This document shows positions 1 to 52,294 of a stretch of 64,000 nt of DNA, one piece after another (the stretch's first letter is position 1; every line of letters begins with the position of its first letter). Origin of the DNA: Eledone cirrhosa (Eukaryota); contig OZ024741.1 in NCBI GenBank assembly GCA_964016885.1, forward strand, positions 145,328,001-145,392,000, in the 5' to 3' direction. The translations under genes and the position numbers were made by a program. Under the pieces are notes generated by a model. The model saw only the letters and a program-made list of their open reading frames with translations, had not been told where the DNA came from and made no database searches.

Positions 1-990
1 ATGTTCGGAGACTTAAGTCAACCAAAACATGAAGTACACATATACACACACCCTACATACGTACGAACCTGCATACTCACACAGACGCAAAACTCCCGTA
101 TACACATAACCAAACCATATGTACCAGAATAAAAAATAAAAAAATGATACGCCATAACATAAACAATCAAATATACGTACGAGAAGGTATACGTACCTTC
201 ACGAAACATACGGGTAATATATACTTACCTATGCAAATAAGTAATGATATAAACAAAACATATACTTAGCTCCCACATCAATACGTAAAATATCCACGTA
301 TAGATCGTACTATCCGTTAGGGTATAACGTGGGGCTGTAATACAGGAAAGTTTTGTGCAATTTATGTTTACAAGCCGAAATTGCCTCAGATTTTTTGTTT
401 AAGATGTGATCTGTGGCGTAGAGTATTTCCAGGGCCTCAGCGGCGCAGAATCACATGGTCTTTTATTTCCGTTATACGACCTAGCCCTAGCTAGGATCTC
501 CCAGTGTAACTTATATTGGGTGTGGCTGTCTTTTAGACTCCAGATATAAGCTGAAAGTGACGTCATATTCCTTCTTAGAGGGTAACGAAAAGAAATGTAT
601 GCGTGTAAAGACGCTGCTTGAATCTATTGGCGGTTAACCCTATGTAGGCCCTACGGGACGTGGGTGTTACAACCTTACATTTGTAGACAATGTTACTAGA
701 GAGGCATTTCCCGGATAGGGGCAATCAACCCGATTCCTACAATTACAGTTAGTACTAACTACAGGGTTGCACGTGTTCCTACGGCTAGGTAGTTTAGCTA
801 AATTTGAAGCTGTGATGTTATGTGCAAGGTTAGGAGTCGTAGAGTAAGAAATTTTAATAGTATTTCTATTAAAAATTTTACTATATTTATGTGTAGGAGG
901 AAAATGCTTCGTAATAAGGGAAAGAAAGATCTTAGATAATGGTGTGACCACCTCCATATTATATGGTGGGTTATACCATATGGTGGGTTA
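1..990 (-). mobile_element. Penelope-like element (Naiad-type) 3' fragment: linker + GIY-YIG endonuclease + 3' UTR, running off the window start
   Basis: Minus strand reads YNPPYNMEV..KHFPPTHKYSKIFNRNTIKISYSTTPNL..CNCRNRVDCPYPG, then after a frameshift NIVYKCKV..AYIGLTANRFKQR..SLSAYIWSLK..WEIL; same motifs as 21200-22050. Confidence 0.85.
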
Positions 991-999
991 TACCATAAA

Positions 1000-2289
1000 C
1001 GTAGGGCCTACATAGGATTAACCGCCAATAAATTCAAGCAGCGTCTTTAAACGCATACCCATTCTTTTCGTTACCCTCTAAGAAGGAATATGACGTCACT
1101 TTCAGCTTATATCTGGAGTCTAAAAGACCATGTGACCTCTGCGCTGCTGAGGCCCTGGAAATACTCTACGCCACAGATCACATCTTAAACAAAAAATCTG
1201 AGGCAATTTCGGCTTGTAAACATAAATTGCACAAAACTTTCCTGTATTACAGCCCCACGTTATACCCTAACGGATAGTACGATCTATACGTGGATATTTT
1301 ACGTATTGATGTGGGAGCTAAGTATATGTTTTGTTTATATCATTACTTATTTGCATAGGTAAGTATATATTACCCGTATGTTTCGTGAAGGTACGTATAC
1401 CTTCTCGTACGTATATTTGATTGTTTATGTTATGGCGTATCATTTTTTTATTTTTTATTCTGGTACATATGGTTTGGTTATGTGTATACGGGAGTTTTGC
1501 GTCTGTGTGAGTATGCAGGTTCGTACGTATGTAGGGTGTGTGTATATGTGTACTTCATGTTTTGGTTGACTTAAGTCTCCGAACATTCGTGTATTTACAT
1601 GTAGGTATGTGTGTGCGCTTGTTATATACGTATTTATTTATTTATATACGTTTATATAATTATTTATTTATTTGTATACACGCATACACACACACATATT
1701 TATATGTGCGTGGTTTTGTATACCTATGGTAATTGTTTTGCGTATGCTTGTGTATGTACGTATTTGTTTGCGTGTATGTATTTATTTCTTTCTATTACTT
1801 CTGTATTGTATTTATTTACTTTGTTCTTAACTCTGTAGCGGAGATTCATTCGGTCTCCTAGTTAAAATTTTAGTGTACGACTTCTGCTATACCATTTACG
1901 TGGTTTTGTCTTTGCGTGCTATTGTTCTCCACGCTCCACATATGACGTATTATCTTCGTTTTTTTCGTTCGTTCATTGCCAGAGAACGTCTCTATGAACC
2001 ACCTAAGAGAACATTAGTCTACGACCTCTTTTATACCATAAACGTTGTTCTGTCTTTGCGCGTAATTGTTTTTCACCGCTCCTATTAATGACGTATCTTA
2101 TTCGTTTTTTCCCGTTCTTTGCCAGCGAACTTTTCCACGAACCAAAGTATCGTCTTCCTGTCTTCCTCCGGTTGCAACGTTTTTTGAAATATCCACTTCT
2201 GCGTTTACAGATTGACTTTGTTAGTTTCAGAAGATCCCGTTAAGGGTGAATGCAGCGATTCTTTGCTTAAACTTTAATCTGTTATTTTA

Positions 2290-3770: not shown

Positions 3771-5680
3771 CATCATCATCATTTTACGTCCGCTTTTCCC
3801 TGCTTGCAAGGGTGGGGCGGGTCTTATTCAGCACAGCATCTCTCCACGGTCTTTCGTCATCTCCACCATGAGCTTCAGCGATCTGAGGTCTGTTCTCACC
3901 ACCTCTGCCCATGTTTTTCGTGGTCTACCTCTACCACGTCTTCCTTCAACTGGCATTTCCTGGCACTTCTTCACCCATCGGTAATCCTCCATGCGCATCA
4001 CATATCCATACCACCTCAGTCTCCTCTCTCGTACACTACATTCTATCCCTCTCAGACACAGTTTCTCTCTCAACATATTCATGATGGGTCATTCACGCAC
4101 ATTGACATTGCACATCCAACGGAGTATGCTTGCCTCATTTCTCTCCAGCCGTCGCATATCCTCTGCAGTTGCTGCCCATGTCTCACTACCATACAGCATC
4201 GCGCTCCTCACACAGGCATCATATAACCAGCCTTTCGTACGCAGGGAGAAACACTTCGTCAGCAGAGGAAGCAGCTCCCTAAACTTCTTCCAACCCATCC
4301 TTATTCTACATACTATGGCCTTGGAACATGCTAATCTGATCTCCTAGGTACCAGAAGCTATGCACCACTTCTATAGCACCCACCTGTATTTGAACAATGT
4401 GTCTATCAATGCGACTTCTACTGTCTAATTTCCCTGTACATCTACTGCATACGTATTTCTCCCTACCTGTTTGTTTGCCTGCTATCCCGCTACATCTCTT
4501 GTGTACCCAGGATCTGCATTGTGTGCATTTTATAGAATTTATGCCAGTTTCTTTTCTGCATATCGAACATGGCCATTTCCCTGACGGAATCAGAGTTTTG
4601 TCCTCTTTTCTACTCATCAACACTTTTGTCTTAGCTAGGTTCACTCTCAGTCCTCTTGATTCCAACTGCTGTTTCCATAGCCAGAATTTATTCTCTAGCT
4701 CCTCTACTGATTCTGCTATAAGAACCAGATCGTCAGCATAGAGAAGTTCCCATGGGCAGCCAGTCTTAAACTCCTCTGTTATGGCTTGGAGGACTATAAT
4801 GAACAAAAGCGGGCTGAGGACCGAACCTTGATGTACGCCTACTTGTACCTGGAATTCCTCCCTAAATTCCATTCCTACTCTGACTTTACTGACAGTACCT
4901 CTGTACAAAGTTTGCACTGTCCTCACAAGCCATTCCTCAACACCTAATTTCCTTAGGGACCACCAGATGACAGATCTGGGTACCCTATCAAAGGCCTTCT
5001 CTAGGTCAACAAAGGCTTATTTTTCTCTAAGAACCTCTCTTGTAATTGTCTCACCAAGAAGAGGGCATCTATTGTACTCTTCCCAGGCACAAAACCAAAC
5101 TGCATCTCATCTAGTTTGACCCTTTCTTTAATTAATTGTGCTAATATCCTTTCTGCCACTTTCATAACCTGATCCATCAGTTTTATACCCCTATAATTGC
5201 TTCTCTCCAGAGCATCCCCTTTACCTTTGTAGCAATTTATGAGAATACTGCTGCACCAGTTTTGGGGTATGACACCACCATATATAGCCTGATTGATTAT
5301 GCGTGCAACTAGTTTAGTGCCTACGTCCCCTGATGCCTTCAGCATCTCAGCAACTATCCCCGATGGTCCAGCAGCCTTACCATTTTTCATTTCCTTAATT
5401 GCCTCTTGGACCCTATATTCGTCAATCTCAATAGCTGGTCCCTCTGTCGGATCTACTGAGGGAAATTTCTCTCTCTCCCATTCGTTCTCCACATTCATCA
5501 GTTTCTCTTAATGACATTTCTAGGCCTCCTTTTTCTGATCATTCGTGACACTAAGTACACCGGCATCATTCCGGACACATTTATCTCAAACAACATCCTG
5601 ATTTGCATTGACACACTGCCTTGCAATGTGGAACACCGCACCCCTCTGATCTTCCCGTCGCAGAACATTGGCAAACCTCC
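3771..5680 (-). mobile_element. RTE-clade LINE, 5'-truncated, frameshifted
   Basis: ORFs 5001..5498, 4306..4926, 4089..4298, 3828..4082: KAAGPSGI, QFGFVPGKST, GVHQGSVLSPLLF, LYADD, PHD cysteines, LYGSETW, RRLRWYG; (CAT)n at 3771. Confidence 0.95.
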
Positions 5681-7496: not shown

Positions 7497-9082
7497 TTGT
7501 TGACTTGGAGATAGCCTTTGATAGAGTACCCCTCTCCATTATCTAGTGAGCTCTTAGAAAACTAGGCGTTGATGAATGGCTTGTGAGAGCTATACAAGCC
7601 ATGTATCAAAAAACAGTCAGCAAGGTTAGAATTAACAACGAATATAGTGAAGAGTTTAGCGTAAAAGTTGGTGTTCATCAGGGCTCCGTCCTTAGCCCCC
7701 TACTATTTATTATTGCCCTTCAGGCTATAACAGAGAAGTTCAAGACCGGCTGCCCATGGGAACTCCTATACGCAGATGATCTAACGCTCATAGCTGAATC
7801 AATGGCTGAACTAGAGAAGAAATTCCAAACATGGAAGCATGGCCTAGAATCAAAAAGCCTTAAAATTAACCTGTCTAAGACTAAAGTTCTAGTTTGTAGA
7901 AAGGAAAATAGGCACTGGTCCCATCTGGGAAATGATCATGCTCAGTGTGTAGGAAAGGAGTAGGCAGAAACTCCATTTTATGTCCCAAATGCAAAATATG
8001 GGTGCATAAAAGATGTAGTGGGATCAAAGGTAAGCTAACTAAGAATATAGATTTTATATGTGGCCGGTGCTCAGGTGCAATAAGTAGCAGCAAGTGCTCA
8101 CAGAATACTAGCTCATTCCATTGCACAGATGGTTCTATAGAAATAGTGGACACCTTCCTTTACCTGGGTGACAAAATCAGCAGTGGCGGAGGGTGCTCTG
8201 AAAGTACAGTAGCTAGAGTCAGAACGGGATGGAAAAAGTTCAGAGAGCTATACCACTATTGGCCGCTAAAGGGTTCTCTCTAAAAATGAAAGGCAGGCTG
8301 TATGATGCCTGCATACGAACAGCAATGTTACATGGCAGTGAGACTTGGGCATTGTGTGCAGAGGATATATGCAGACTGGAGAGGAACGAAGCTTGCGTGC
8401 TCTGTTGGATGTGTAATAGTAATATACGTGAACGGCAAAGCATAAATGTAATAAAGAAGAAATTAGGAATAAGAGGAATCAGATTTTGTTTACTCGAGAG
8501 AAGACTACGTTGGTATGGTCATGTGATAAAAAAGTGCAGGGCGATAAAAATAGACGGTAGCCACGGAGTAGGCAGACCCAGAAAAACCTGGGACGACTTG
8601 ATAAATTCCAACCTCACACACTTACATCTCTCCAAGACAATGTCACTGGACCGAGATCTTTGGCGCTACACAGTAATACAGAAGACCCGCCTTGCTTAAG
8701 TACAAAGCGAAACCTACAGTCAGTAGGCACCTCTTAAAAAAAATACACACCCGTCCCACTACCCCCACCCCAACCACACCACCCCTTCCGATGTAAAGTT
8801 ATGTTGGTACCACAACATACAGTCCAAAATAAATGAGGTCGTGTAGGTGTCACAACAAAAAAACACAAAGTCCACGCTGTAATGTGGTCATGTAGGTAAC
8901 ACGGTAAAAACCTCCCAGTCCTCACTGTAAACGTGGTTGGTGTTAGGAAGGTCATCCAGCCGTAGAAAACACGACAGACAGTCCTATACGAGCAAAACAA
9001 CCAATCTTGCCTCAAGTGGGAAAATTGCCGTCCAAACCCATGTAAGCGTGGGAGATGGACGTTAAACGATGATGATGATGAT
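7497..9082 (+). mobile_element. RTE-clade LINE, 5'-truncated, frameshifted
   Basis: VDLEIAFDRVP, ORFs 7583..7963, 7945..8283, 8229..8699; 3' UTR ending (GAT)n; (TA)n on both sides. Confidence 0.95.
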
Positions 9083-9094
9083 ATATGTATATAT

Positions 9095-9288
9095 AACAAA
9101 GGAATTGTGGTAAGGAAACAGATGGACCATAACGCACCAGAGTACTCAATACTTAGGATAGTAGAGTGGGAAATAGGAAAAAGTATGACCCCAGCGGCAG
9201 AGCTGAAGCCGTTTCAACGGCTATTTCTGTCCAGAAATAGCCGTCTAAACGGCTTGAGCTCTGCCATCGGGATCATACTTTTTCCTAT
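9095..9288. mobile_element. Asymmetric foldback (family B; half-hammerhead pLTR relic)
   Basis: Hairpin with apex ctatttctg-tc-cagaaatag; homologous to 11135-11267 and 19176-19385. Confidence 0.75.
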
Positions 9289-10934: not shown

Positions 10935-11134
10935 NNNNNNNNNNNNNNNNNNNNNNNNNNNNNNNNNNNNNNNNNNNNNNNNNNNNNNNNNNNNNNNNNN
11001 NNNNNNNNNNNNNNNNNNNNNNNNNNNNNNNNNNNNNNNNNNNNNNNNNNNNNNNNNNNNNNNNNNNNNNNNNNNNNNNNNNNNNNNNNNNNNNNNNNNN
11101 NNNNNNNNNNNNNNNNNNNNNNNNNNNNNNNNNN
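10935..11134. other. Assembly gap (200 N)
   Basis: Run of N. Confidence 1.
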
Positions 11135-11265
11135 AGAATTAGCCGTCGAAACGGCTTGAGCTCAGCCTCGGGGTCCTACTCATTCCTATTACCCACTCTA
11201 CTACCCTAAGTATTGGGTACTTTGGTGCGTTATGGTCCACCTGGTTCCTTACCACATTTCCTTCG

Positions 11266-11267
<2 letters not shown>
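11135..11267. mobile_element. Family B foldback arm abutting the gap
   Basis: agaattagccgtcgaaacggcttgagctcagcc.. plus tail; reverse complement of the 19176-19313 arm. Confidence 0.75.
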
Positions 11268-11798: not shown

Positions 11799-11879
11799 TG
11801 TAAGTATGTATGTATACGTACATACATATATGTATACAGATGTACAGTAGCATGTATATATATACATACAGGTACACAT

Positions 11880-12030
11880 ATATATATGCACGTATCAGTT
11901 TACCGAACATTTATTATAATGCTCGGTTTGTTCGTTTGTAAACAAACAAACAGCCTGAATTACGCCGTACAGTGTTTAGGCAACCACGTCACCTTTTTGT
12001 TCAGCACTGACATATATGTATGTACGTATA
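11880..12030. mobile_element. Family C foldback arm (single)
   Basis: tttaccgaacatttattataatgctcggtttg..gccgtacagtg shared with 18945-19080 and 25570-25750. Confidence 0.65.
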
Positions 12031-12900: not shown

Positions 12901-12965
12901 TATTTCATTATACATATTTCAGGAATACCAAATTAAAATATGGTATGCCTTCATCAGACAAAATA
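12901..12965 (-). ncRNA. Minimal type I hammerhead in a PLE-like 3' end (about 12775-13110)
   Basis: tattttgt CTGATGA aggcatacca..tggtattcct GAAA tatgta TA atgaaata. Confidence 0.85.
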
Positions 12966-15257: not shown

Positions 15258-15647
15258 GAATACAATAAATGTAATCTGAGTTTTTTGAATATTAATAATA
15301 ACATTCGATTCGTTTGTAATTATGCAAGCAAGCCTCAATTTTATAGCCATGTCAGTAGAATGAACCCTTCATTCTTGCTCTTGTGTTGGCATATGAACAG
15401 AACTGTATTTTTGAAAATAGCATATATTTTCACTAGCTCTGACAGTTTGGCAGGTGAACAATGAGCTGTACTGATGAAGGGTGATACCCAGAAACATTAG
15501 TGTCTGCAGTTCAGGTCACATACCAACACAAGAGCAAGAATGAAGGGTGGGTTCATTCTACTGACATGGCTATAAAATTGAAGCTTGTTTGCATAATTGC
15601 AAATGAATCGAATGTTATTAATATTCGAAAAACTCAGATTACATTTA
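15258..15647. mobile_element. PLE-like pLTR relic with ~140-bp inverted arms
   Basis: 15266-15406 mirrors about 15505-15647; short homolog at 53650-53700. Confidence 0.75.
15462..15513 (+). ncRNA. Minimal type I hammerhead ribozyme
   Basis: tgagctgta CTGATGA a-ggg-tgata-ccc-a GAAA cattagtg TC tgcagttca; 9-bp stem I, GUC site. Confidence 0.88.
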
Positions 15648-18923: not shown

Positions 18924-19153
18924 GTACATACACACATATATATATGTACGTATGGGTTTACCGAACATTTATTACAATGTTCGGTTTGTTTGTAAACAAA
19001 CAGCCCGAATTTGGGCTGTTTGTTTACAAACAAACCGAACATTATAATAAATATTCAGTAAACCCATACGTACATATATATATGTGTGTATGTACGTATA
19101 TATATACATATATATATGTCTGTACACATATATGTATGTACGTATAAATACTT
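18218..19153. mobile_element. Family C asymmetric foldback interrupted by a ~500-bp insert in its internal (TA)n
   Basis: Tail 18218-18310 and arms 18922-19153 are contiguous in the 25425-25827 copy. Confidence 0.7.
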
Positions 19154-19175
19154 ATATTTATATATATATATATAT

Positions 19176-19385
19176 AACGAAGGAAATGTGGTAAGGAACC
19201 AGGTGGACCATAACGCACCAAAGCACTCGATACTTAGGGTAGTAGAGTGGGTAATAGGAACGAGTAGGACCCCGACGGCTGAGCTGAGCTCAAGCCGTTT
19301 CGACGGCTAATTCTGGACTAAGTTAGTCCAGAATTAGCCGTCGAAACGGCTTTAGCTCAGCCGTCGGGGTCCTACTCATTCCTAT
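19176..19385. mobile_element. Family B asymmetric foldback
   Basis: Apex ggctaattctggactaa-g-ttagtccagaattagcc; left arm has an extra ~75-nt tail. Confidence 0.8.
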
Positions 19386-19605: not shown

Positions 19606-22053
19606 ATGCTGATCAAAGACCAACTCCCTATGTCAACCAAGAACATACCAATACCATCCAAGAATACATATGAAAAATTATTGATCGACAGTGCAAATTA
19701 TCAATAGAGTGAGATGGAGGACATTCCATTATGATAAAAACAAATCTAGCAAGGTTAATAATAGTAACAAATTTGACTCCTTTGGCTTTAAAACCTTTAG
19801 AAGCCTCCCTCATAACACACTACTAAACTCCTTTGAAAATGACCTAATAAAACTAGTTAAGAATATTAAATACAAAAAGCACCGTAATAAAAACAACACC
19901 TTAAACAAACTTAACACCTCTATTAATGATTTCAAAACTAGTAATAAAATTATTGTACATGCGGACAAAACTAATAACATATACAGCCTAGATTATAATA
20001 CTTATAGAAAGTTTATATATAATGAACTACATAAAAGCTACAAGAAAACTACTATGAAAAACTTAGAAGATATTAATATGGAAGGCTATAATATAGTGTC
20101 CAAACCAGGACTTCAGAGACATACACAACCATATACCCCAAACACCCCCTAGATTCTCTCTGAAGGACCATAAGGAGGACTTCATTAGCAACCCCTCGAT
20201 TAGACTTATCTGCCCTTCCAAGTCTGACATTGGAATTATCAGTAAGATAATTTTAGATAAAATCATCCCACAAATTAAACACAAGATATACCTTAAACAA
20301 TGGGGAAATACAGGTGAAGTGATTGAATGGTTCAAAGATATCAAGGATAACAATTTATTCAATTTGATATCAATTCATACTACACCTCTATTTCCCCTAT
20401 CCTATTAAATAAGGCACTTATCATGGCCATGGACAATAGTGACTTGACTAGACCCCAGGTTGATGTCATACTTTCGGCCCGTAAAACAGTAATCACCTTT
20501 GAAGACCAATTATGGACCCGCAAAGATACGCAAAACAACTTCGACATAACCATGGGATCTAGTGACTCGGCGCAGGTCACTGATTTGGTCGGCCTATATT
20601 TACTTAACGAAATCCATAAGGACCTTCCATACCTCAACGGTGGTTTGTACCGCGATGATGCACTTCTACTTATAGACTATAAAAAATTCAACATAGAAAG
20701 AACTAGAAAACTATTGCACAAATTCAATATAGAAAGAACTAGAAAACAATAACCTTAGTATTACCATGGACAAAAACACTAAAAACGTTAACTTCCTGGA
20801 CGCCACCCTCTACCTAGACTCAAAGATATATACACCTTTCCACAAACCTAATGAAAAACTCATTTACGTAGATACCAAGTCTAACCAACCTAGATCTATA
20901 TTAAACTCTATCTCTAAGGGAGTATCCAATAGAATCTCTAATCTATCCTATGACGTAAACATATTTAGCAAAAACTCGCAATATTATAATCAGGCATTAG
21001 CTAGATCAGGCCATAATATAGAGATCGAGTTCCTACCTACAAAAACACATAGCTACAACATTATTTCGCACAACATGTCCATGAGGAAATTTAGTAATAG
21101 GAATAGCAACACACACACTAATACGGAGGATGCCAACAAGAGTAACCCACACCACAGAAATTACCATAGTACCATAAAAGGAAACAACTCACCAGACATA
21201 AAAAACAAAAATAGAAGAAGAAATAATACATTTTTCAACCCTCCTTTCAATTTAAACGTCTCTACCAACCTACCTAGGGCTTTCTTCTCACTACTAGATA
21301 AAAACTTCCCATCTGGCCATAAGTACCATAGCCTTTTAAACAAAAACACTATTAAAATCTCCTACTCTACTACGCCTAACATAGCATACCACATAGCTAG
21401 TAGCAATAAAAGAAAAATTAATTCTTACTTCCAACAAACTAAATCACAACAGACGATAAACCTTCAAAATAACATTATATCAACTAACCCTAATAACAAT
21501 AGAAATAATAGTAATAGCACTACTGTAAGCAATAACGCTGGGAACGACACCCCCATAACCATAATCCTATAGCTACCATCCAGACTTCTACACAACATAA
21601 TAACCGGCAGACTAACACCCAGAATAATTGTAACTGTAGATCAAATAGAACCTGCCCTTTAGATAAAAAATGCTTAATCAAGGATATCATATACTGCACC
21701 GTCACAACTAGCAACTCTTCTGAAACCTATATAGGCTCTACTTCAAACTGCTTCAAAACCAGATACAATTCGCACCTTCACTCTTTCAAAAACACAGTCT
21801 AGCCAACTCCACTTCACTATCTAGCTACATACACTATCTAAAAACTAAAAATAAATCATATACACTTAAATGGGAAGTGATAGGTAACGCAACATCGTAC
21901 AAACCACCTAATAAATTTTGTAACCTCTGTCTACTAGAGACCCATACTATTATCTTCTCAAACCATAACCTCCTTAATAAAAAATCAGAAGTGTTCGCGT
22001 CTTGCCAGCACCGCTTCCGACACTCCTTCCAAAACTTTAAACCCAATATATAA
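19606..22053 (+). pseudogene. Near full-length Penelope-like (Naiad-type) RT + GIY-YIG ORF with several frameshifts
   Basis: MSTKNIPIPS..RVRW..FGFKT..ADKTNNIY..LKDHKEDF..RLICPSKSDIG..QWGNT..FDI..YTSIS..FDITMGSSDSAQVTDLVG..GLYRDD..VNFLD..FFNPPF..KISYS..CNC..CP..IIY..TYIGST..FKTRY..CNLCLLE..LLNKKSE..CQH. Confidence 0.92.
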
Positions 22054-25518: not shown

Positions 25519-25549
<31 letters not shown>

Positions 25550-25823
25550 CATAGACACATATATATATGTACGTATGGGTTTACCGAACATTTATTATAA
25601 TGTTCGGTTTGATTGTAAACAAACACTCCAAATTAAACCGTACAGTGCTCGGCAACCATCAACGATGGTTGCCTAGCATTGTACGGCGAAACTCGGGCTG
25701 TTTGCTTACAAACAAACCAAACATTATAATAAATGTTCGGTAAACCCATACGTACATATATATATATGTGTGTATGTATGTATATATATATGTCTGTACA
25801 CAAATATGTATGTACGTATAAAT

Positions 25824-25883: not shown

Positions 25884-26120
25884 TATATAGATATATAGAT
25901 ATATATATACATACATTTATATATATACATACATATATATATGTACATACATATATATATGCATACACATATATATATATATATATACGCGATATATATA
26001 TATATATATACATACATATACATACATATATATATACATATATATACATACATTTATGTATATACATACATATTTGTATATACATGCATATGTATGTATA
26101 TACATATATGTATATACATA

Positions 26121-27820
26121 CATCATCATCATCATCATCATCAACGTTTAACGTCCGTGTTCCACGCTTGCATGGGTTTGGACGGGGGTTTTCCCACTTG
26201 AGGCAAGAGTGATTGCCTTGCTCGCATAGGACTGTCTGGCAGGTTTTCTACAGTTGGATGCCCTTCCTAACACCAACCACATTTACAGTGTGGGTCTGAG
26301 AGGTTTTTACCGTGTTGCCTACACGGCCACATTACAGCGTGGACTGTATGTTTTTTTGTCGTGACACCTACACGATCTCATTTGTTTCGGCCTGGATGGC
26401 GCTGCACCAACATAACTTTACATAGAACGGGGTGGTGTGGATGGGGTGGTGGTGGTGGGACGGGGTGTATTTTGTTAGAGATGCCTACTGGCTGTAGTAG
26501 GTTTTACTATGTATTTAGGTAAGGCGGGTCTTCTCTGTTACTGAGTACCGCCAAATGTCTCAGTCCAGTAACATTGTCTTGGAGAGGTGTAAGTGTGTGA
26601 GGTCGGAGTTTATCAGCTCGTCCCAGGTTTTTCTAGGTCTGCCTATTCCGTGGCTACCGTCTCTCTTTATTGCCCTGCACTTTGTTATACAGCTATCGAC
26701 TTTCATGCGCATCACATGTCCATACCAACGTAGCCTTCTCTCAAGTAAACAACATCTGATCCCTCTTATTTCTAATTTTTTCCTTAGTTCGTTTATGCTT
26801 TGCCGTTCACGTATATTACTGTTACACATCCAGCGGAGCATGCAAGCTTCGTTCCTCTCTAGTCTGCGAATATCCTCTGCACACAATGCCCAGGTCTCAC
26901 TGCCATGCAACATTGCTGTTTGTATGCAGGCATCATACAACCTGCCTTTCATTTTTAGGGAGAACCCTTTAGCAGCTAATAGTGGTATAAGCTCTCTGAA
27001 CTTTTTCCAACCAGTTCTGACTCTAGCTACTGTACTTTCAGAGCACCCTCCCCCACTGCTGATTTTGTCGCCCAGGTAACGGAAGCTGTCCACTATTTCT
27101 ATAGAACCCTCTGCGCATTTGAAAGAGCTAGTATTTTGTGGGCACTTGCTGCTACTTATTGCACCAGAGCACCGGCCACATGTAAAATCTATGTTCTTAG
27201 TTAGCTTACCTGTGATCCCACTACATCTTTTATGCACCCATACTTTGCATTTGGGACATAAAATGGAGTTTCTACCTATGCCTTTCCTACACACTGAGCA
27301 TAGCCATTTCCCAGAAGGGACCGCCGCCTTCTTTTCTTTCCTACAAACTAGAACTTTAGTCTTAGCCAGGTTAATTTTAAGTCCTTTTGATTCTAGGCCG
27401 TGCTTCCATGTTTGGAATTTCTTCTCTAGCTCAGCCATTGATTCAGCTATGAGTGTCAGGTCGTCTGCGTATAGGAGTTCCCATGGGCAGCTGGTCTTGA
27501 ACTCCTCTGTTATAGCCTGAAGGGCAATAATAAATAGTAGGGGGCTAAGAACAGAGCCCTGATGGACGCCAACTTTTACGCTAAACTCTTCACTATATTC
27601 GTTGTTAATTCTAACCTTGCTGACTGTTTCTTTATACATGGCTTGTATAGCTCTCACAAGCCATTCGTCAACCCCTAGTTTTCTAAGAGCCCACCAGATA
27701 ATGGAACGGGGGACTCTGTCGAAGGCTTTCTCCAAGTCGACAAAAGCTAAGTAGAGGGGTTTACCTTCAGCTAGGTACTTCTCCTGTAGTTGTCGTACAA
27801 TGAAAAGAGCGTCTGTGGTA
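26121..27820 (-). mobile_element. RTE-clade LINE, 5'-truncated
   Basis: ORF 26560..27972 (real from TTDALF): FVDLEKAFDRV, YADD, PHD finger, RRLRWYGHV; (CAT)n tail. Confidence 0.96.
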
Positions 27821-28165: not shown

Positions 28166-30723
28166 TTACATATATATACAAACACACATATATATATATT
28201 TATAAATTGAGTGCGTATATATATATATAATCCCTAATATATAATATAATGTGTGTTGGATCATTGGTTGGATGTCATGTTTGATAAAAGTGAGACAGAA
28301 AGAGTGAAGAGGGAGAGAGTAATAGAGAAAGATAGTGTATCCTTTGTCAGTTTTAGTTGTCTGATAAACTGAATATTATGTTCATTAAATCAACAATCAA
28401 TTGGCCCAGTATTTCATAGAGATGTGTACTATTAATGTAATACCTGAAATTACAGACATAGCAATTTCTTAATCTCTCAGCCATGTTTATGTTTGCTTGT
28501 GTAAGATGATGGATCTTCCGTCGGCTTTGATGGTGAGCATCAACTATTCATGTGTGAGGGGTTGAGTATTCTTGAAATATGTATGCCCTTAACATAATTC
28601 TCTGGCAGTAATAACATATGACAAGGCTGGACCTTTGAATTACAGGTAAAATTAATTGGATGGGATTCCACATAATTTTCATGTAAACAATTTCACTCAC
28701 AGACTTGAGTCACCCCCAAGACTATGATAAAAGACAAAGATGTTATACAGTGAGATCAAACCCAGACATTTTTGACAGGGATGCAAATTTCTTAACCTCT
28801 CGGCCCTGTCAGTGACTATTTATGGAAGATACTCCTATATTCAATTCAGCTCTCTCCATTTGCAAATCTTCAGAAATGTAACATTGTTTAAACTAATAAG
28901 AGATTTTCCAAAATTTAATTGAATAGCAAAAAAAAAAGCTCACAGGAAATTATATATATTCCAAACAAGTTGGAGTAATCAGAATAATAAGCTTATTTCA
29001 AAATTATGGGATGAGATTTAAAATAAAAATAATTTCAGCGTTTTTTTTCGAAAATGGTTTGTGCAATTTTATTTGTTGCTACACTTACATTGCAAGCGTG
29101 CTGTGCATACAGAATTAGCTTAAAGGCAAGTTAGTTACAAGATCTGTCTATGCTTCGATTCCCTGTTTTTATCTATAAGAATCTGTTTCTGAAGTTTACA
29201 TTCTTTATAAAGTATTCAATATTGATTGGTGTTGACAGAACAAAATATTTTTTTTCTCTATGTATCCAAGCAAACAGAGAGGGGGATATTGTCTGTGTTA
29301 TGTGTATGTATGTGTCATGTGTATGTGTGTGAGTATGTATGTGTCTGTGGGAGAAAGACAGAAACAGAGATAAATCTTACAATTCAAATAAAGTTGCTTT
29401 GTCCACACTCATATTTATGTACAACAAAAACAATAAAAATGTTTTAAGCAATGTTCCCTGTTAAAGCTAGAGTTAGCTGAGTGGAGGGCATAAGACACTT
29501 CTCCAAATTGCCCTATCCTCTAAATCCCCCCTCACCAACCCCATGGCTTCCATTTCCTTTAGCCATGTCTTTCTTAGTTTTATCTTTAGTCATGTTTTTT
29601 GCCATCTTACCATTCCTCTACTTAAATATTAGTAAATACAATTTCTTCATCACTCTTGATATATTACAGTCTTATATATCTACAGTTAGATGTTGTTTCC
29701 TATTCAACTACCCCCTAAATATTGTACACTGTGACATCTTCCAATTTCCTTCTTTTCTTTTCCCTTCTACTCTTTTAGATCCTATAATGATTTAGCAAAA
29801 TAGTCTAAAAACAGAGATGCTAACTTAAATGCTGACATCTTAGTGGACAGATCATTGTGAACATTTGTAATATGAAGACTTTGATATTTAATGTGATACA
29901 ATCATAGTGATGTTTTGTACTTTTCAAGAACATCTTGAAAATGTGGTTTCATGTGGTTCATTAATTTAAATGTTTATAATATTTTTATTAGTGGAAAGAT
30001 CAATGTTTTGTAATTTTCAGGAGCATCTTACAACAGCATAATCATCACCACCACAACCAAAGTCATCATGGTCATTATCATCATATTTCTCATCATTAAC
30101 ATCAGCATTATCTTCTTCATTATAAATATATCATCATCATGATCAGGACTATAAATGATGATGATCATTATCATTTTATATCAATTTTTCAATGCTAGTG
30201 TGGGTTTTACCATCAGCACTAGCAATGGCACATACTGTCAATGATGGCATAGGTGGTTGTGAAGGAGTGCAGTGACAGAGATGTTAGTAACTGGGACATT
30301 GTTACAGTATGGCAACATCTGGCACCAAAGTCACCCTAATTAATTGACAATATAGATTCTATTCAGCAGCTGTGGCCAACAATTAATTAATAATCACATC
30401 ATACCCCTATGTAAAAGAATGACATATATATATATGTGAGTGTATATACCATTCTCTTTATATGTAAGAATGATACACACATATATATGTTATTCTCTAT
30501 ATCTGTAAATTTGCCAGTGATTCCTCTTTCTTTCTCTTTCTATATATGTATAGTTGTGTATAATATATATGTATGTGTGAGTACGGATGTGTGTAGGTGC
30601 TTATATATGTATTTGGATGTTTGCTATGTGTGTAGGTAGTTTATTTTCAATATTCATTAGTTATGTCTCCCTGTACGTTGTGTCTACCTGTCTCTAACTA
30701 TCTATCTATCTATCTATCTCTCT

Positions 30724-30754
<31 letters not shown>

Positions 30755-30756
<2 letters not shown>

Positions 30757-32885
30757 TACTAGAGGCGACGGATGAGGTTTGTGGCTGGAGTAAGACCTCA
30801 AGCAGGAGGAGAGTGACTTGGTGGTGGAACAATAAGGTAGATGAAGCAGTCAAGGCCAAGAGACAGGCATGGAAAGAATGGAAGAACGGGGGGAGCAGGG
30901 TACATTACATAGAGACCAAGAGGGAAGCTAGGCGACAAGTATACTTAGCTAGGAGGGAAGCAGAGGATAGAAAATTCAAGCATGTTTTACAACGTGAGGA
31001 CCAGAAACAGGAGGTATTCAAGATTGCGAGGCAGTGTGTCAGAGATAGTTGTGATGTCATTGGAGAGAAGTGTATCCGGAATGATAAAGGTGAGCTTGCC
31101 CTCACAAGTGCTGAGAAGAAAGATGCATGGAAGAGTCATTATGATAGATTACTAAATGAGGAGAATGCATGGGAAGAAGAGACCCTACCCCACGTAGACC
31201 CTATAGAGGGACCAGCAGTACAAGTCAGCGGCAGCGTAGTAAGTAAGGCAATCAGAGATATGAAGATAGGGAAGGCAACCGGTCCATCGGGTATAGCTGC
31301 CGAGATGCTGAAGGCATCTGGGTCTGTAGGTCACACTATAACCACACGTATCGTTAACCAGGTAATACTAGAGGGGGCCATACCAAAAGATTGGTGCAGT
31401 AGCATCATTGTCAACTGCTACAAAGGTAAAGGCGATGCACTAGATAGAGGAAACTATAGAGGTATAAAGTTGATGGACCAGGTCATGAAAGTAACAGAAA
31501 GAGTTATAGCACAGCTGATTAGGGACCGGGTGAATATAGACGAGATGCAATTTGGGTTTGTTCCAGGGAAAGGCACCACTGATGCGTTCTTCCTTGTGAG
31601 GCAATTACAGGAAAAGTACCTAGCTAAAAGTAAGCCACTCTACTTGGCATTTGTCGACCTTGAGAAAGCCTTTGACAGAGTTCCACGTGCAGTAATCTGG
31701 TGGGCTCTTAGAAAACTAGGAGTAGATGAATGGCTTGTGAAAGCGGTACAAGCCATGTATAGGGGAGCAGTCAGCAAAGTTAGGATTGGCAATGAGTATA
31801 GCGAGGAATTTAGCGTACAGGTTGGGGTCCACCAGGGCTCTGTTCTTAGCCCTCTCCTGTTCATCATAGTCCTGCAGGCAATAACGGAGGAGTTTAAGAC
31901 CGGATGCCCATGGGAACTCCTGTATGCTGATGACCTCGCACTCATAGCTGAATCTATGGTAGAACTAGAGAATAAATTCCAAACCTGGAAGCAGGGACTA
32001 GAGAGAAAGGGCCTCAAAGTCAACATGACAAAGACTAAGGTCCTTATAAGTAGACGAGAAAACAGAACCCAGATCCCCTCAGGGAAATGGCCTTGCTCAG
32101 TATGTAGGAAAGGTGTAGGTAGGAACTCCATTCTTTGCCCCAAATGCAAACAATGGGTACACAAGAGATGTAGCGGGATCTCAGGAAGCTTAATTAAGAA
32201 TGTAGGATTCACATGCAGCAGCTGTGCTGAAACAGCAAGCAAACAGCCACAGGAAACAAGTACCACCAATCTCTGGGAGGGCCCTGTAGAAACAGTAGAC
32301 AGCTTCTGCTACCTAGGTGACCGAATTAGCAACGGAGGTGGGTGCTCAGAAAGTACAATAACTAGGGTAAGAACGGGATGGAAGAAGTTTAGGGAACTAC
32401 TACCACTGCTAGCTGCAAAAGGCTTCTCCCTCAGAATGAAAGGCAGACTGTATGATGCGTGTATCCGAACAGCGATGTTGCATGGTAGTGAGACCTGGGC
32501 GCTGAAGGTGGAAGACTTACGTAGATTAGAGAGAAACGAAGCCTGCATGCTCCGATGGATGTGTAACAGTAATATACGTGAACGACAAAGCATAAATGAA
32601 TTGAGAGAGAGACTGAGCATAAGAGGAATCAAATGCTGCGTGCAGGAGAGGCGGTTACGCTGGTATGGACATGTGATGCGTATGAAGGATGACAGCTGCA
32701 TAAAAAGGTGCAGAGCACTAGAAGTTGATGGAAACCGCGGAGTGGGGAGACCCAAGATGACTTGGGATGAGGTGATAAAAGCCGACCTTACCCAACTACA
32801 CCTCTCAAAATCAATGACACACGACCGTGACTTCTGGCGTCACGCAGTAATACAGGGTACCCGACCTCCCATGGGTACATGCTGA
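30755..32885 (+). CDS. RTE reverse transcriptase (N-terminally truncated) with internal PHD finger
   Basis: WWWN, KATGPSGI, NYRGIKL, QFGF, FVDLEKAFD, QGSVLSPLLF, YADD, C4HC3 at 32094-32225, FCYLG, GSETW. Confidence 0.9.
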
Positions 32886-33183
32886 AGCATATAAACAATA
32901 TGCCCCCCCCCCCACCGCAAGGTGGTCGTGGAGGTGCCACGGCAAAAAAGCACCCAGCCCACACTGTAAAGTGGACGTGTAGGCGCCACGAAAAAGCACC
33001 CAGCACTCACTGTAAATGAGGTTGGTGTTAGGAAGGGCATCCAGCTGTAGAAATCAAGCCAGATCAGTTCCTGTATGAGCAAGGCATGGTCAGCCGACCA
33101 GACACTGCCCACAACAGGACAACCCGTCTAACCCATGCTAGCGTGGAAGAACGGACGTAAAACGGTGATGATGATGATGATGA

Positions 33184-33187
<4 letters not shown>
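30755..33187 (+). mobile_element. RTE-clade LINE, longest copy, 5'-truncated before the APE domain
   Basis: Uninterrupted frame from LLEATDEVCG to the stop at 32885; 3' UTR and (GAT)n; (TA)n both sides. Confidence 0.97.
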
Positions 33188-33253
<66 letters not shown>

Positions 33254-43264: not shown

Positions 43265-43280
43265 GTATATATATATATAT

Positions 43281-44492
43281 AGAAAGAAAATAAGGCGGCG
43301 GTCCCCTCCGGGAAGTGGCCATGCGCAGAGTGTAGGAAAGGCGTAGGTAGAAATTCCATTTTGTGTCCCAAATGCAAAGTTTGGGTGCATAAAAGTTGTA
43401 GTGGGATCACAGGTAAGCTAACTAAGAACATAGATTTTACATGTGGCCGGTGTTCTGGGGCAATAAGTAGCAGCAAGTGCCCACAAAATACTAGCTCTTT
43501 CAACTGCGCAGAGGGTTCTATAGAAATAGTGGACAGCTTCCGTTACCTGGGTGACAAAATCAGCAGTGGGGGAGGGTGCTCTGAAAGTACAGTAGCTAGA
43601 GTCAGAACTGGGTGGAAAAAGTTCAGAGAGCTTATACCACTATTAGCCGCTAAAGGGTTCTCCCTAAAAATGAAAGGCAGGCTGTACGATGCCTGCATAC
43701 GAACAGCAATGTTGCATGGCAGTGAGACCTGGGCATTGTGTGCAGAGGATATACGCAGACTAGAGAGAAACGAAGCTTGCATGCTCCGCTGGATGTGTAA
43801 TAGTAATATACGTGAACGACAAAGCATAAACGAACTAAGGAAAAAATTAGAAATAAGAGGGATCAGATGTTGTTTACTAGAGAGAAGGCTACGTTGGTAT
43901 GGTCACGTGATGCGCATGAAGGACGATAGCTGTATAACAAAGTGCAGGGCAATAAAGATAGACGGTAGCCACGGAATAGGCAGACCCAGAAAAACCTGGG
44001 ACGAGCTGATAAACTCCGACCTCACACACTTACACCTCACCAAGACAATGTCACTGGACCGAGACCTTTGGCGGTACTCAGTAATAGAGAAGACCCGCCT
44101 TACCTAAATACAAAGTAAAACCTACTACAGTCAGTAGGCATCTCTAACAAAATACACCCCCGTCCCACCACCCCCACCCCATCCACACCGCCCCCTTCTA
44201 TGTAAAGTTATGTTGGTGCCACACCATCCAGGCCGAAACAAATGAGATCGTGTAGGTGTCACGACAAAAAAACACACAGTCCACGCTGTAATGTGGCCGT
44301 GTAGGCAACACGGTAAAAACCTCCCAGACCCACACTGTAAATGTGGTTGATGTTAGGAAGGGCATCCAACTGTAGAAAACCTGCCAGACAGTCCTATGTG
44401 AGCAAGACAATCAGTCTTGCCTCAAGTGGGAAAACCCCCGTCCAAACCCATGCAAGCGTGGAACATGGACGTTTAAACGTTGATGATGATGA

Positions 44493-44496
<4 letters not shown>
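43281..44496 (+). mobile_element. RTE-clade LINE 3' part
   Basis: ORF 43361..44107 from the PHD finger to the C-terminus; (GAT)n tail. Confidence 0.95.
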
Positions 44497-44547
<51 letters not shown>

Positions 44548-45026
44548 GATATATGTACATGCACACACACATATATATATAGTATCTATAATGTATATAA
44601 TATACATATATATGTGTGTGCGTGTATGTACAAGTGTATGTGTCTGCCCGTGTTCCTTCATTATTTGTTCATATTCCATAACTTAACAATAAGACCAGTT
44701 CATCAAGTACTGGGGTTGATATTTTGATAAACTAAAATCCCCTCAAGGCAGTGCCCCCATATGGCCACAGTCTAATAACTGAAACCAGTAAATGAATAGA
44801 GAAGAAAAATGAATAAAAAAAGAATCGTCCTTTAATTCAGTTAATCAAAGAAAAGTAAAATTCCCAATGATGATTTCAAATATATTTTTCTTGCTGCTTA
44901 TTTCTCAATAGTTTCTGATTAGTTCCATCTGTAAGTTTAGTAAATATATATAATATTTTGCTCCCTTTTATGTCCTCAAGCAAATACAAAAAAGTGAAAT
45001 CATCTTACATATATCTAAGCAGTCTT

Positions 45027-46486: not shown

Positions 46487-46561
46487 GCTGTCTGATGATG
46501 CCACGGCACTGGGTACATTGAATCGTGTGGTTGTTGTTGCCATTGAAATACGTATCACAAC
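46487..46561 (+). ncRNA. Minimal type I hammerhead (degenerate stem II) in a PLE-like 3' end (about 46390-46690)
   Basis: gctgt CTGATGA ...44 nt... GAAA tacgta TC acaac; palindromic stem III. Confidence 0.65.
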
Positions 46562-49370: not shown

Positions 49371-49436
49371 TATTTTATCTGATGAAAGCGCACCATAGTT
49401 TGCTCTGGTGGCCCTTGAAATATGTATAATGAAATA
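49371..49436 (+). ncRNA. Minimal type I hammerhead, same family as 12901-12965
   Basis: tattttat CTGATGA aagcgcacca..tggtggccctt GAAA tatgta TA atgaaata. Confidence 0.82.
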
Positions 49437-50037: not shown

Positions 50038-50100
50038 AAATACTATATACATTTCAGTAGCCAGGTTACCCAGAATCCTGGTGACATCATCAGGTCACTT
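50038..50100 (-). ncRNA. Degenerate minimal type I hammerhead
   Basis: aagtgac CTGATGA tgtcaccagg..cctggctact GAAA tgtata TA gtattt; AATAAA follows. Confidence 0.6.
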
Positions 50101-50109
50101 TATTCAATA

Positions 50110-52294
50110 TCATGATCGTTTCACGTCCATGTTCCACGCTTGCATGGGTTTGGACGGGAGTTTTCCCACTTGAGGCAAGAGTGGTTGTCTTGCTCGCATA
50201 GGACTGTCTGGCGGGTTTTCCACAGCTGGATGCCCTTCCTAACACCAACCACATTTACAGTGTGGGGCTGGGAGGTTTTTACCGTGTTGCCTACACGGCC
50301 ACATTACAGCGTGGACTGTCTGGCGGGTTTTCTACAGCTGGATGCCCTTCCTAACACCAACCACATTTACAGTGTGGGGCTGGGAGGTTTTTACCGTGTT
50401 GCCTACACGGCCACATTACAGCGTGGACTGTGTTTTTTTTTTGTCGTGACACCTACACGATCTCATTTGTTTCGGCCTGGATGTTGTGGCACCAACATAA
50501 CTTTACATTGAAAGGGGCGGTGTGGATGGGGTGGGGGTGGTGGGACGGGGGTGTATTTTGTTAGAGATGCCTACTGATGTAGTAGGTTTTACTTTGTATT
50601 TAGGTAAGGTGGGTCTTCTCTATTACTGAGTACCGCCAAAGGTCTCGGTCCAGTGACATTGTCTTGGAGAGGTGTAAGTGTGTGAGGTCGGAATTTATCA
50701 GCTCGTCCCAGGTTTTTCTGGGTCTGCCTACTCCGTGGCTACCATCTATCTTTATTGCTCTGCACTTTGCTATACAGCTGTCGTCTTTCATGCGCATCAC
50801 GTGACCATACCAACGTAGCCTTCTCTCGAGTAAACAACATCTGATCCCTCTTATTTCTAATTTTTTCCTTAGTTCGTTTATGCTTTGCCGTTCACGTATA
50901 TTACTATTACACATCCAGCGGAGCATGCAAGCTTCGTTCCTCTCTAGTCTGTGTATATCCTCTGCACACAATGCCCAGGTCTCACTGCCATGCAACATTG
51001 CTGTTCGTATGCAGGCATCATACAACCTGCCTTTCATTTTTAGGGAGAACCCTTTAGCGGCTAATAGTGGTATAAGCTCTCTGAACTTTTTCCATCCAGT
51101 TCTGACTCTAGCTACTGTACTTTCAGAGCACCCTCCCCCACTGCTGATTTTGTCACCCAGGTAACGGAAGCTGTCCACTATTTCTATAGAACCCTCTGCG
51201 CAATTGAAAGAGCTAGTATTTTGTGGGCACTTGCTGCTACTTATTGCACCAGAGCACCGGCCACATGTAAAATCTGTGTTCTTAGTTAGCTTACCTGTGA
51301 TCCCACTACATCTTTTATGCACCCATACTTTGCATTTGGGACATAAAATGGAGTTTCTACCTACGCCTTTCCTACACACTGAGCATGGCCATTTCCCGGA
51401 AGGGACCGGCGCCTTATTTTCTTTCCTACAAACTAGAACTTTAGTCTTAGCCAGGTTAATTTTAAGGCCTTTTGATTCTAGGCCGTGCTTCCATGTTTGG
51501 AATTTCTTCTCTAGCTCGGCCATTGATTCAGCTATGAGCGTTAGGTCATCTGTGTATAGGAGTTCCCATGGGCAGCCGGTCTTGCACTCCTCTGTTATAG
51601 CCTGAAGAGCAATAATGAATAGTAGGGGGCTAAGAACAGAGCCCTGATGGACACCAACTTTTACGCTAAACTCTTCACTATATTCGTTGTTAATTCTAAC
51701 CTTGCTCACTGTTTCTTTATACATGGCTTGTATAGCTCTCACAAGCCATTCGTCAACACCTAGTTTTCTAAGAGCCCACCAGATAATGGAACGGGGGACT
51801 CTGTCGAAGGCTTTCTCCAAGTCGACAAAGGCTAAGTATAGGGGTTTACTTTTAGCTAGGTACTTCTCCTGTAGTTGTCGTACAATGAAAAGAGCGTCTG
51901 TGGTACTTTTGCCTGACACAAACCCGAACTGCATTTCATCTAGATCGATTCTCTCTCTGATTAGTTGCACTATTACTTTTTCCGTGACCTTCATGACCTG
52001 GTCGATTAATTTAATCCCTCTATAGTTACTCCTATCTAGGGCGTCTCCTTTACCCCTGTAACAGTTAATGATGATGCTGCTACGCCAGTCCTTCGGAACA
52101 ACCCCATTCTGTATGACTTGGTTTACTATCCGGGTGACCATGGTGTGTCCCACCGTTCCAGAGGCCTTCAGCATCTCAGCAACTATTTCCGAAGGCCCAG
52201 CCGCCTTACCCGTCTTCATATCTTTGATTGCCTTACTTATTATACTAGCTTCAACTAACACTGCTGGTCCCTCTATTGGATCGATCTGGGGTCA
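50110..52294 (-). mobile_element. RTE-clade LINE, 5'-truncated; ~112-bp duplication in the 3' UTR
   Basis: ORF 50600..52261 (YTDD in place of YADD), PHD finger; ggactgtctggcggg.. repeated at 50201 and 50313. Confidence 0.96.

What the first reader, a model, noticed from the sequence alone, without database searches (positions are those of the whole stretch)
19176..19385. Foldback elements made of only the 3' half of a hammerhead (family B)
Seen: three copies (9095-9288, 11135-11267, 19176-19385) give the arm consensus gccgtc GAAA cggc-ttgagctca-gccg TC ggggtcctac. This is GAAA + stem III + GUC + stem I', but no CUGANGA half is present; the arm is mirrored about an apex roughly 15-25 nt upstream of GAAA. 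Inference: reverse transcription stalls in ribozyme stem II and the cDNA snaps back on itself, so the ribozyme fold would dictate where inverted pLTRs form. Transcripts would be long hairpins, or substrate strands for trans-cleavage by intact copies.
Basis: partly seen in the sequence, partly recalled or inferred. Interest (0 to 1): 0.75.

Follow-up and report, generated by a model that had tools for sequence, protein, structure and literature searches.

The report
Twin-primed Penelope stumps marking RNA ends
These hairpins are among about 18,000 short head-to-head leftovers of one Penelope-like jumping gene; they likely form when two copying reactions start on the same RNA, run off its 5' end and are joined, so their centres would mark where the RNA begins or is cut by its ribozyme rather than where the ribozyme fold blocks copying.

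Summary
The foldbacks are real (two of three window copies; the third abuts an assembly gap). They are terminal-repeat stumps of a Hydra-like Penelope retrotransposon: about 18,300 foldbacks genome-wide, and 6,285 arms keep the missing half as a U3-A8 core (UUGANAA), not CUGANGA. 48 of 50 foldbacks pair a short-ended arm with a tail-ended arm; the arms share subfamily variants, so each formed anew. Snap-back of one cDNA fails: the tail-less arm often reaches further upstream. A stem II stall fits poorly: ends lie 4-15 nt upstream of stem II's 3' strand, and no arm that read through the ribozyme had a partner stopping there (0 of 14). Best model: two reverse-transcription starts on one RNA, one per target strand, run off the RNA 5' end (likely a transcription start in loop II) and are end-joined. 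A minor class (308 matches) is centred exactly on the predicted cut site, a likely fossil of in vivo ribozyme cleavage. No RNA data were available. The architecture is known; the mechanism is inferred. This scan reached the two-primer, promoter-start reading before on other DNA of this genome.

The parts
19176..19385 (.). Whole foldback insertion in (TA)n: tail-ended arm head-to-head with short-ended arm
19176..19321 (-). Long (L) arm: from loop II through the 3' half of the hammerhead, past the S site, to the end of the tail; has a private 5-nt duplication in loop III
19176..19256 (-). Tail, about 80 nt, between the two fixed 3' ends S and L; in tandem copies it continues into the 5' UTR and ORF of the next unit
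19322..19322 (.). Junction: one non-templated base between arms that both reach position -12
19323..19382 (+). Short (S) arm, ending at the S site next to (TA)n
19323..19328 (+). Initiator-like TTAGTC; the A at 19325 (position -10) is the commonest arm end and the inferred transcription start
   Evidence: initiator consensus recalled, start site not shown
19335..19370 (+). 3' half of type I hammerhead: stem II 3' strand 19335-19342, GAAA 19343-19346, stem III with palindromic loop, GUC 19363-19365, predicted cut after 19365, stem I 3' strand 19366-19370
9095..9288 (.). Second foldback, other subfamily: L arm antisense 9095-9229, S arm sense 9229-9285, 1-nt microhomology; core letters degraded
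11135..11267 (+). Single L arm beginning at an assembly gap (200 N, 10935-11134); partner not visible

Best explanation
The foldbacks are short head-to-head insertions of the terminal repeat of a Hydra-like Penelope retrotransposon, likely made by twin priming: both nicked strands of a (TA)n target would prime reverse transcription on one RNA, one at site S and one at site L, both copies would run off the RNA 5' end, and their ends would then be joined. Shown: parent element, two fixed 3' ends, one S plus one L arm per insertion, arms matching within a copy, clustered and paired 5' ends, repair-like junctions. Inferred: twin priming (about 0.85); stop at the RNA 5' end rather than a fold (about 0.8); that the main 5' end is a transcription start at an initiator-like site inside loop II (about 0.65); that the minor class centred on GUC^G records ribozyme-cut RNA (about 0.7).
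For: Parent: unfolded arms lead upstream through a 1.15-kb 3' UTR into an RT plus C-terminal endonuclease ORF; the tail runs on into the 5' UTR and ATG. S+L in 48 of 50 positional foldbacks (43 by script, 5 by eye; 1 L+L, 1 unclear, 0 S+S), 7 of 7 long two-armed insertions, 20 of 20 cut-site foldbacks. Own arms differ by 0.080 against 0.154 for shuffled pairs, 0 of 10,000 permutations; a subfamily site agrees in 50 of 50. The longer arm ends at S in L092 and L275. Arm ends: 98 of 100 at -4 to -15, none beyond, mode -10. Junctions: 19 inserts, 16 blunt, 15 microhomologies of 50. Read-through arms pair with read-through arms: 13 of 14, 1 tail-only, 0 loop II; chance about 2e-13 if each arm stalled independently. 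L270 and L193 are ORF-bearing copies that begin in loop II with a short inverted arm. Cut-site class: 308 matches, control 3; of the first 50 loci 21 have both arms ending exactly at the cut with non-templated letters between (12 a single A/T) and 13 have no spacer (counted by hand); 0 of 59 loop II insertions has a partner ending at the cut site, about 13 expected from independent stalls. PMC11167929 shows in vitro that a Penelope protein extends both target strands from two internal RNA sites that bound the tail.
Against: No RNA data: start site and cleavage are not shown. The extra-G (cap) test was inconclusive (376 against 109, confounded by templated inserts and by a subfamily with C at -11). 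The 13 no-spacer cut-site junctions can also be CG microhomology joins, and 16 of the 50 listed do not end at the cut on both sides. The subfamily with many C3.A8 mismatch cores also gives cut-site foldbacks, so the expected loss was not seen; that subfamily is mixed. Two read-through arms carry internal deletions across the ribozyme (L281, L282), so the fold may affect the polymerase; L281 is S+S and L159, L030 are L+L. The hammerhead stems show no covariation and no Rfam hit. Later deletion of palindrome centres could blur which arm was longer. The pattern sees only spacers up to 45 nt. In PMC11167929 the start sites have no homology to the target, whereas S and L here are followed by TAT.
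Confidence: 0.7

Rival explanations
1. One reading: reverse transcription from the tail stalls at stem II, the cDNA snaps back and copies itself, then jumps to the target at S.
For: Ends cluster next to stem II; some centres are perfect or near-perfect palindromes and six fit a 4-nt snap-back hairpin; PMC3846280 favours self-priming for such palindromes; deletions across the ribozyme in L281 and L282.
Against: In all six hairpin-like junctions the loop sits on the tail-less arm, which cannot template the tail; tail arm further by 3 nt or more in only 12 of 48; 12 tail-less arms with too-short tail arms; S-ended copies with no partner; no mixed insertions.
Confidence: 0.07
2. Twin priming, but both polymerases stop at a folded or protein-bound ribozyme on a long RNA; RNAs differ in fold state, which makes the two arms agree.
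For: Ends are next to stem II and the cut site lies at the base of stem III; agreement of arms can come from a shared RNA state; hammerhead fold is within 3 kcal/mol of the minimum in most copies.
Against: Main ends lie upstream of the stem's 3' strand; sharp upstream edge at an initiator-like motif; L270 passes one full ribozyme and ends at the 5' repeat; cut-site ends exclude C17 on both arms in 21 of 50.
Confidence: 0.15
3. The main RNA 5' end in loop II comes from a nuclease or splicing event (TTTAG/TTCAG resembles a 3' splice site), not from transcription start.
For: Pyrimidine run plus AG at -10/-9; in D. virilis an intron end abuts the ribozyme (PMC4209133).
Against: A splice would put ends at -8 (3 of 100) whereas -9 and -10 hold 38 of 100; no upstream exon is joined on.
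Confidence: 0.05
4. A non-autonomous palindromic element (MITE-like or one master foldback) that spreads as a unit.
For: Constant length and ends, very high copy number.
Against: Junction differs from copy to copy and arms co-vary with the parent's subfamilies; long insertions have the same layout.
Confidence: 0.03

Closest known systems
Insertion unit of EN+ Penelope-like elements: inverted 5'-truncated copy plus one-sided tail (PMC8557442; PMC3846280; PMC2377424)
   Same: Head-to-head arms, tail on one end only, palindromic junction, partial tandems, AT-rich target.
   Different: Tail about 80 nt (30-40 nt in the papers); most copies are reduced to two 60-145 nt arms; the data favour two primers on a sense RNA over the self-priming on an antisense template proposed in PMC3846280.
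Hydra clade of Penelope-like elements, e.g. Hydra-1_Obim (PMC8557442)
   Same: RT then C-terminal endonuclease, DKT, CxCX5C linker, no CCHH, CxxC and CxH motifs, (TA)n target; RT blocks resemble Hydra-1_Obim by eye.
   Different: Unit 3.5-3.6 kb, RWR for RWK, non-canonical ribozyme core; the core 14-mer is absent from the paper's supplement as searched and Hydra-1_Obim has another ribozyme, so this is another family.
Poseidon PAc of Anolis, in vitro (PMC11167929)
   Same: Two internal reverse-transcription starts bounding the tail, downstream of the ribozyme; both target strands extended.
   Different: PAc starts lie in the ORF and lack target homology; no reads ended at its cut site, whereas here a genomic class ends at the cut site; the parts read do not link the two starts to inverted junctions.
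U3-A8 hammerhead variant of Schistosoma Cercyon elements (PMC4209133)
   Same: U3-A8 core pair, long stem II, palindromic loop III, single copies and opposite-strand pairs.
   Different: 6-bp stem III (monomer-competent on paper) and a 39-nt loop II that holds the inferred start site.
LINE-1 twin priming (recalled, no call)
   Same: Second target strand primes internally; inverted piece joined by end repair.
   Different: Here both primers use fixed sites and copy the same stretch, giving a duplication rather than a plain inversion.

Membership tests
EN+ Penelope-like element (parent) | Single ORF with PLE-type RT and C-terminal GIY-YIG-type endonuclease | tested here: met
   Motifs read in ORFs (GLYRDD; YQC..AYIG); resemble the Hydra alignment by eye. 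Pfam gave no hit.
EN+ Penelope-like element (parent) | Partial tandems forming pLTRs, inverted 5' copy, one-sided tail | tested here: met
Hydra clade | DKT in place of DKG | tested here: met
   HSDKTGN in L271, L273, L275, L277
Hydra clade | CxCX5C linker; CCHH absent; CxxC and CxH beside conserved E and N | tested here: met
   CNCPDRSSC, CNLC, CKH; one C only before AYIG (criteria)
Hydra clade | RWK motif | tested here: inconclusive
   Reads RWR in the DNA of L092 and L096
Hydra clade | (TA)n insertion bias | tested here: met
Hydra clade | Canonical hammerhead and length generally under 3 kb (descriptive traits) | tested here: not met
   U3-A8 core; unit 3.5-3.6 kb. Filed as Hydra-like only.
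Hydra clade | Placement in the clade by phylogeny | not tested
   Reference sequences were read in the supplement but not loaded into a tree.
Type I hammerhead ribozyme (full-length pLTR) | Core residues, G10.1-C11.1 pair, three stems, NUH triplet | tested here: met
   TGA-N-AAG invariant in 25 of 25 with N7 taking all four bases, U3 in 21 of 25; 94.5% of cells paired
Type I hammerhead ribozyme (full-length pLTR) | Covariation or Rfam model match | tested here: inconclusive
   No pair changes on both sides; no Rfam match for L172 1200-1520
Type I hammerhead ribozyme (full-length pLTR) | Self-cleavage | not testable with these tools
   Only indirect: cut-site foldbacks
Non-LTR retrozyme | Direct tandem monomers each with a complete hammerhead | tested here: not met
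   Inverted half-ribozyme arms (definition)
MITE / foldback DNA transposon | Unit copied from a master with fixed interior and matching terminal repeats | tested here: not met
   Unequal ends, copy-specific junctions, retroelement parent

The most novel reading that the evidence does not exclude
The stumps are a genome-wide fossil map of the element's RNA 5' ends: the promoter starts inside its own ribozyme so that the 5' copy cannot cut, the 3' copy does cut in the germ line, and cutting removes the 3' priming sites, leaving only the 5' ones. The ribozyme would then act as a switch from full-length copies to abortive stumps, and twin priming would be the general source of the inverted pLTR and one-sided tail of Penelope elements.
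Probability: 0.3. Interest if true: 0.75.

Novelty: new member of a known kind. Interest (0 to 1): 0.5.

Why it matters
How Penelope-like elements make their inverted repeats and one-sided tail, and whether their hammerheads cut in vivo, are stated as open in PMC8557442, PMC3846280 and PMC11167929. One family here supplies about 18,000 separate natural events that favour two primers on one sense RNA over self-priming, and a few hundred that end at the ribozyme cut site. Both points give sharp, cheap tests (5' end mapping; an existing in vitro system). The stumps are about 0.12% of the genome; if they keep the start site, each would be an outward-facing two-way promoter (untested).

Tried and rejected
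Rfam scan of the window: only low-complexity microRNA matches among the 150 shown of 266; none on a full pLTR. Pfam: no hit for 4 proteins. The systematic arm difference in L004-L029 first suggested a folded master; rejected as a likely selection effect of the rare-word search, since positional samples show matching arms. My first label 'Naiad' (notebook) was wrong: the endonuclease is C-terminal. The ORF at 19685-22053 is not the parent: 38-58% protein identity, no DNA match. Cap-G test inconclusive. Natural-mutant test with the C3.A8 subfamily inconclusive: loose pattern, 242 against control 226. A second hammerhead family gave only 13 foldbacks with scattered centres, 2 with an arm starting at its presumed cut site: inconclusive. 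over-extended four arm ends to -14; corrected. RNA runs: no RNA holder listed. Literature searches found no paper tying twin priming to Penelope inversions; the library lacks most subscription journals, and supplements of PMC11167929 and PMC4209133 were not read and may bear on this.

Full report
Observation. The copy at 19176-19385 is a foldback in (TA)n with a 146-nt antisense arm and a 60-nt sense arm that carries GAAA, stem III, GUC and the 3' strand of stem I, without the 5' half of a hammerhead. The copy at 9095-9288 is a degraded foldback; the copy at 11135-11267 is one arm against an assembly gap. The core 18-mer occurs 59,027 times in the 3.0-Gb genome (control 0) and a strict foldback pattern about 18,300 times.

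Parent element. Copies that do not fold back continue upstream through the 5' half of the ribozyme and a 1.15-kb 3' UTR into an ORF with RT and a C-terminal endonuclease. It shows DKT, CxCX5C, CxxC and CxH, lacks CCHH and sits in (TA)n, as the Hydra clade does (PMC8557442 section 11). It is longer than most and its ribozyme is not canonical, and no tree was built, so I call it Hydra-like. In tandem copies the 80-nt stretch beyond the short end runs on into the 5' UTR and ATG: it is the Penelope tail. The broken ORF right of the finding belongs to another family.

Ribozyme. The 5' half reads ACCCC-YTGANAA-G. 6,285 arms match this core; canonical CTGANGA gives 61 matches, mostly chance. In 25 aligned copies position 7 takes all four bases while its neighbours are invariant, and U3 faces A8 in 21. 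The U3-A8 variant is described in Schistosoma Penelope elements (PMC4209133). Stems pair in 94.5% of cells but never covary, Rfam finds nothing, and the fold is at or near the minimum energy in most copies. Activity is not shown.

Two ends, one RNA. The family has two fixed 3' ends, S and L. Of the first 50 foldbacks along contig 1, 48 have one of each (43 by script, 5 by eye), 1 is L+L, 1 unclear, none S+S. The same holds for 7 of 7 long two-armed insertions and several ORF-bearing ones. Arms of one copy resemble each other more than shuffled pairs (0 of 10,000), so foldbacks arose again and again from single templates. PMC11167929 (parts 1-2 of 4 read) shows a Penelope protein cutting and extending both target strands from two internal RNA sites that bound the tail. 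That is what this layout predicts.

Against snap-back. A cDNA primed at S has no tail, so snap-back needs the L arm to be first and longest. The S arm reaches further in 21 of 48, the L arm in 17, equal in 10. Twelve of 100 positional arms are S arms reaching loop II joined to an L arm that stops earlier; such joints also appear in short-read contigs. In L092 and L275 the S arm is kilobases longer. Junctions are blunt, microhomologous or carry short inserts. Later deletion of palindrome centres (recalled mechanism) could blur this, so snap-back is unlikely rather than excluded. PMC3846280 (passages) had favoured self-priming on an antisense RNA.

Where the arms stop. 98 of 100 ends lie 4-15 nt upstream of the stem II 3' strand, none further, mode at -10 (the pattern sees spacers up to 45 nt). 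That A lies in T(T/C)AGT(C/A), which fits the initiator consensus (recalled); D. virilis Penelope has a TATA-less internal promoter with an initiator (PMC2377424, passages). About 81 of 100 arms end here and 19 read through. If each polymerase stalled on its own, most read-through arms would have a stopped partner; among the first 30 read-through arms, 14 insertions are two-armed, 13 with both arms reading through, 1 with a tail-only partner, none with a loop II partner; 6 arms have no family partner (three pairs judged from positions only). L270 is a 3.6-kb copy that passes its 3' ribozyme and begins in loop II of its 5' repeat. A shared RNA 5' end explains all this; a shared fold state is the main rival. 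The cap-G test did not decide. Two arms have deletions across the ribozyme, a point for an effect of the fold.

Cut-site class. 308 loci (control 3) join two arms at or near GUC^G. In the first 50, 21 have both arms ending exactly at the cut with non-templated letters between, 12 of them a single A or T; 13 have no spacer (exact, or a CG microhomology); 16 differ (hand count). Twenty that I chose from the exact and no-spacer kinds are all S+L. None of 59 loop II insertions has a partner ending at the cut, against about 13 expected from independent stalls. This likely records cleaved RNA used as template. The test with the C3.A8 subfamily was inconclusive, and PMC11167929 found no reads ending at the cut site of its element.

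Known and new. The architecture is standard for EN+ Penelope elements (PMC8557442, passages, section 11 and supplement look-ups). The retrozyme preprint (part 1 of 5) concerns direct tandems, which these are not. Seven searches found no paper linking twin priming to these inversions. Earlier notes of this scan, seen after I had stated my reading, reach the same two-primer and promoter-start view on other DNA of this genome; they are not independent support. Verdict: a new family of a known kind whose by-products make an open mechanistic question testable; no RNA evidence yet.

Noticed in passing
window 19685-22053 (+): Frameshifted Hydra-like Penelope ORF of another family, 300 nt right of the finding; 38-58% protein identity to the parent, no DNA match.
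   Followed up: partly
window 1-1586: Long inverted duplication of a third Hydra-like endonuclease region, same head-to-head layout.
   Followed up: no
window 18926-19095, 25548-25778, 11863-11961: Another (TA)n foldback family with variable centre; no hammerhead core noticed; in L242 one of its arms is joined head-to-head to an arm of the family studied here.
   Followed up: no
window 49379-49420 (+), 12917-12957 (-), 46492-46548 (+), 50052-50093 (-), 15471-15494 (+): Canonical CTGATGA...GAAA hammerhead-like motifs of at least three other repeat families; the one at 15471 lies in the loop of an inverted repeat 15266-15647.
   Followed up: partly
window 3963-5668, 7497-9095, 26004-27743, 30636-33231, 43280-44613, 50109-52291: Several copies of RTE-like LINE reverse transcriptase with a cysteine-rich insert, 66-96% alike (family name recalled).
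   Followed up: no
L281 5605-5854 and L282 1049-1564: Read-through arms with internal deletions that skip part of the ribozyme; L281 is S+S with a perfect palindromic centre upstream of the ribozyme.
   Followed up: partly
L012, L075, L085 flanks of the element: Flanking DNA is itself duplicated, inverted in L012 and L075 and direct in L085.
   Followed up: no
window 19342-19346: CGAAA of the ribozyme falls at +18 to +22 from the inferred start, where a downstream core-promoter motif is expected (recalled), so these letters may serve two roles.
   Followed up: no
L180, L181, L200, L274 (G000:C14, near 25.10 and 25.40 Mb): A multi-copy tandem and inverted array of the parent element appears twice about 300 kb apart; segmental duplication or assembly duplication.
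   Followed up: no
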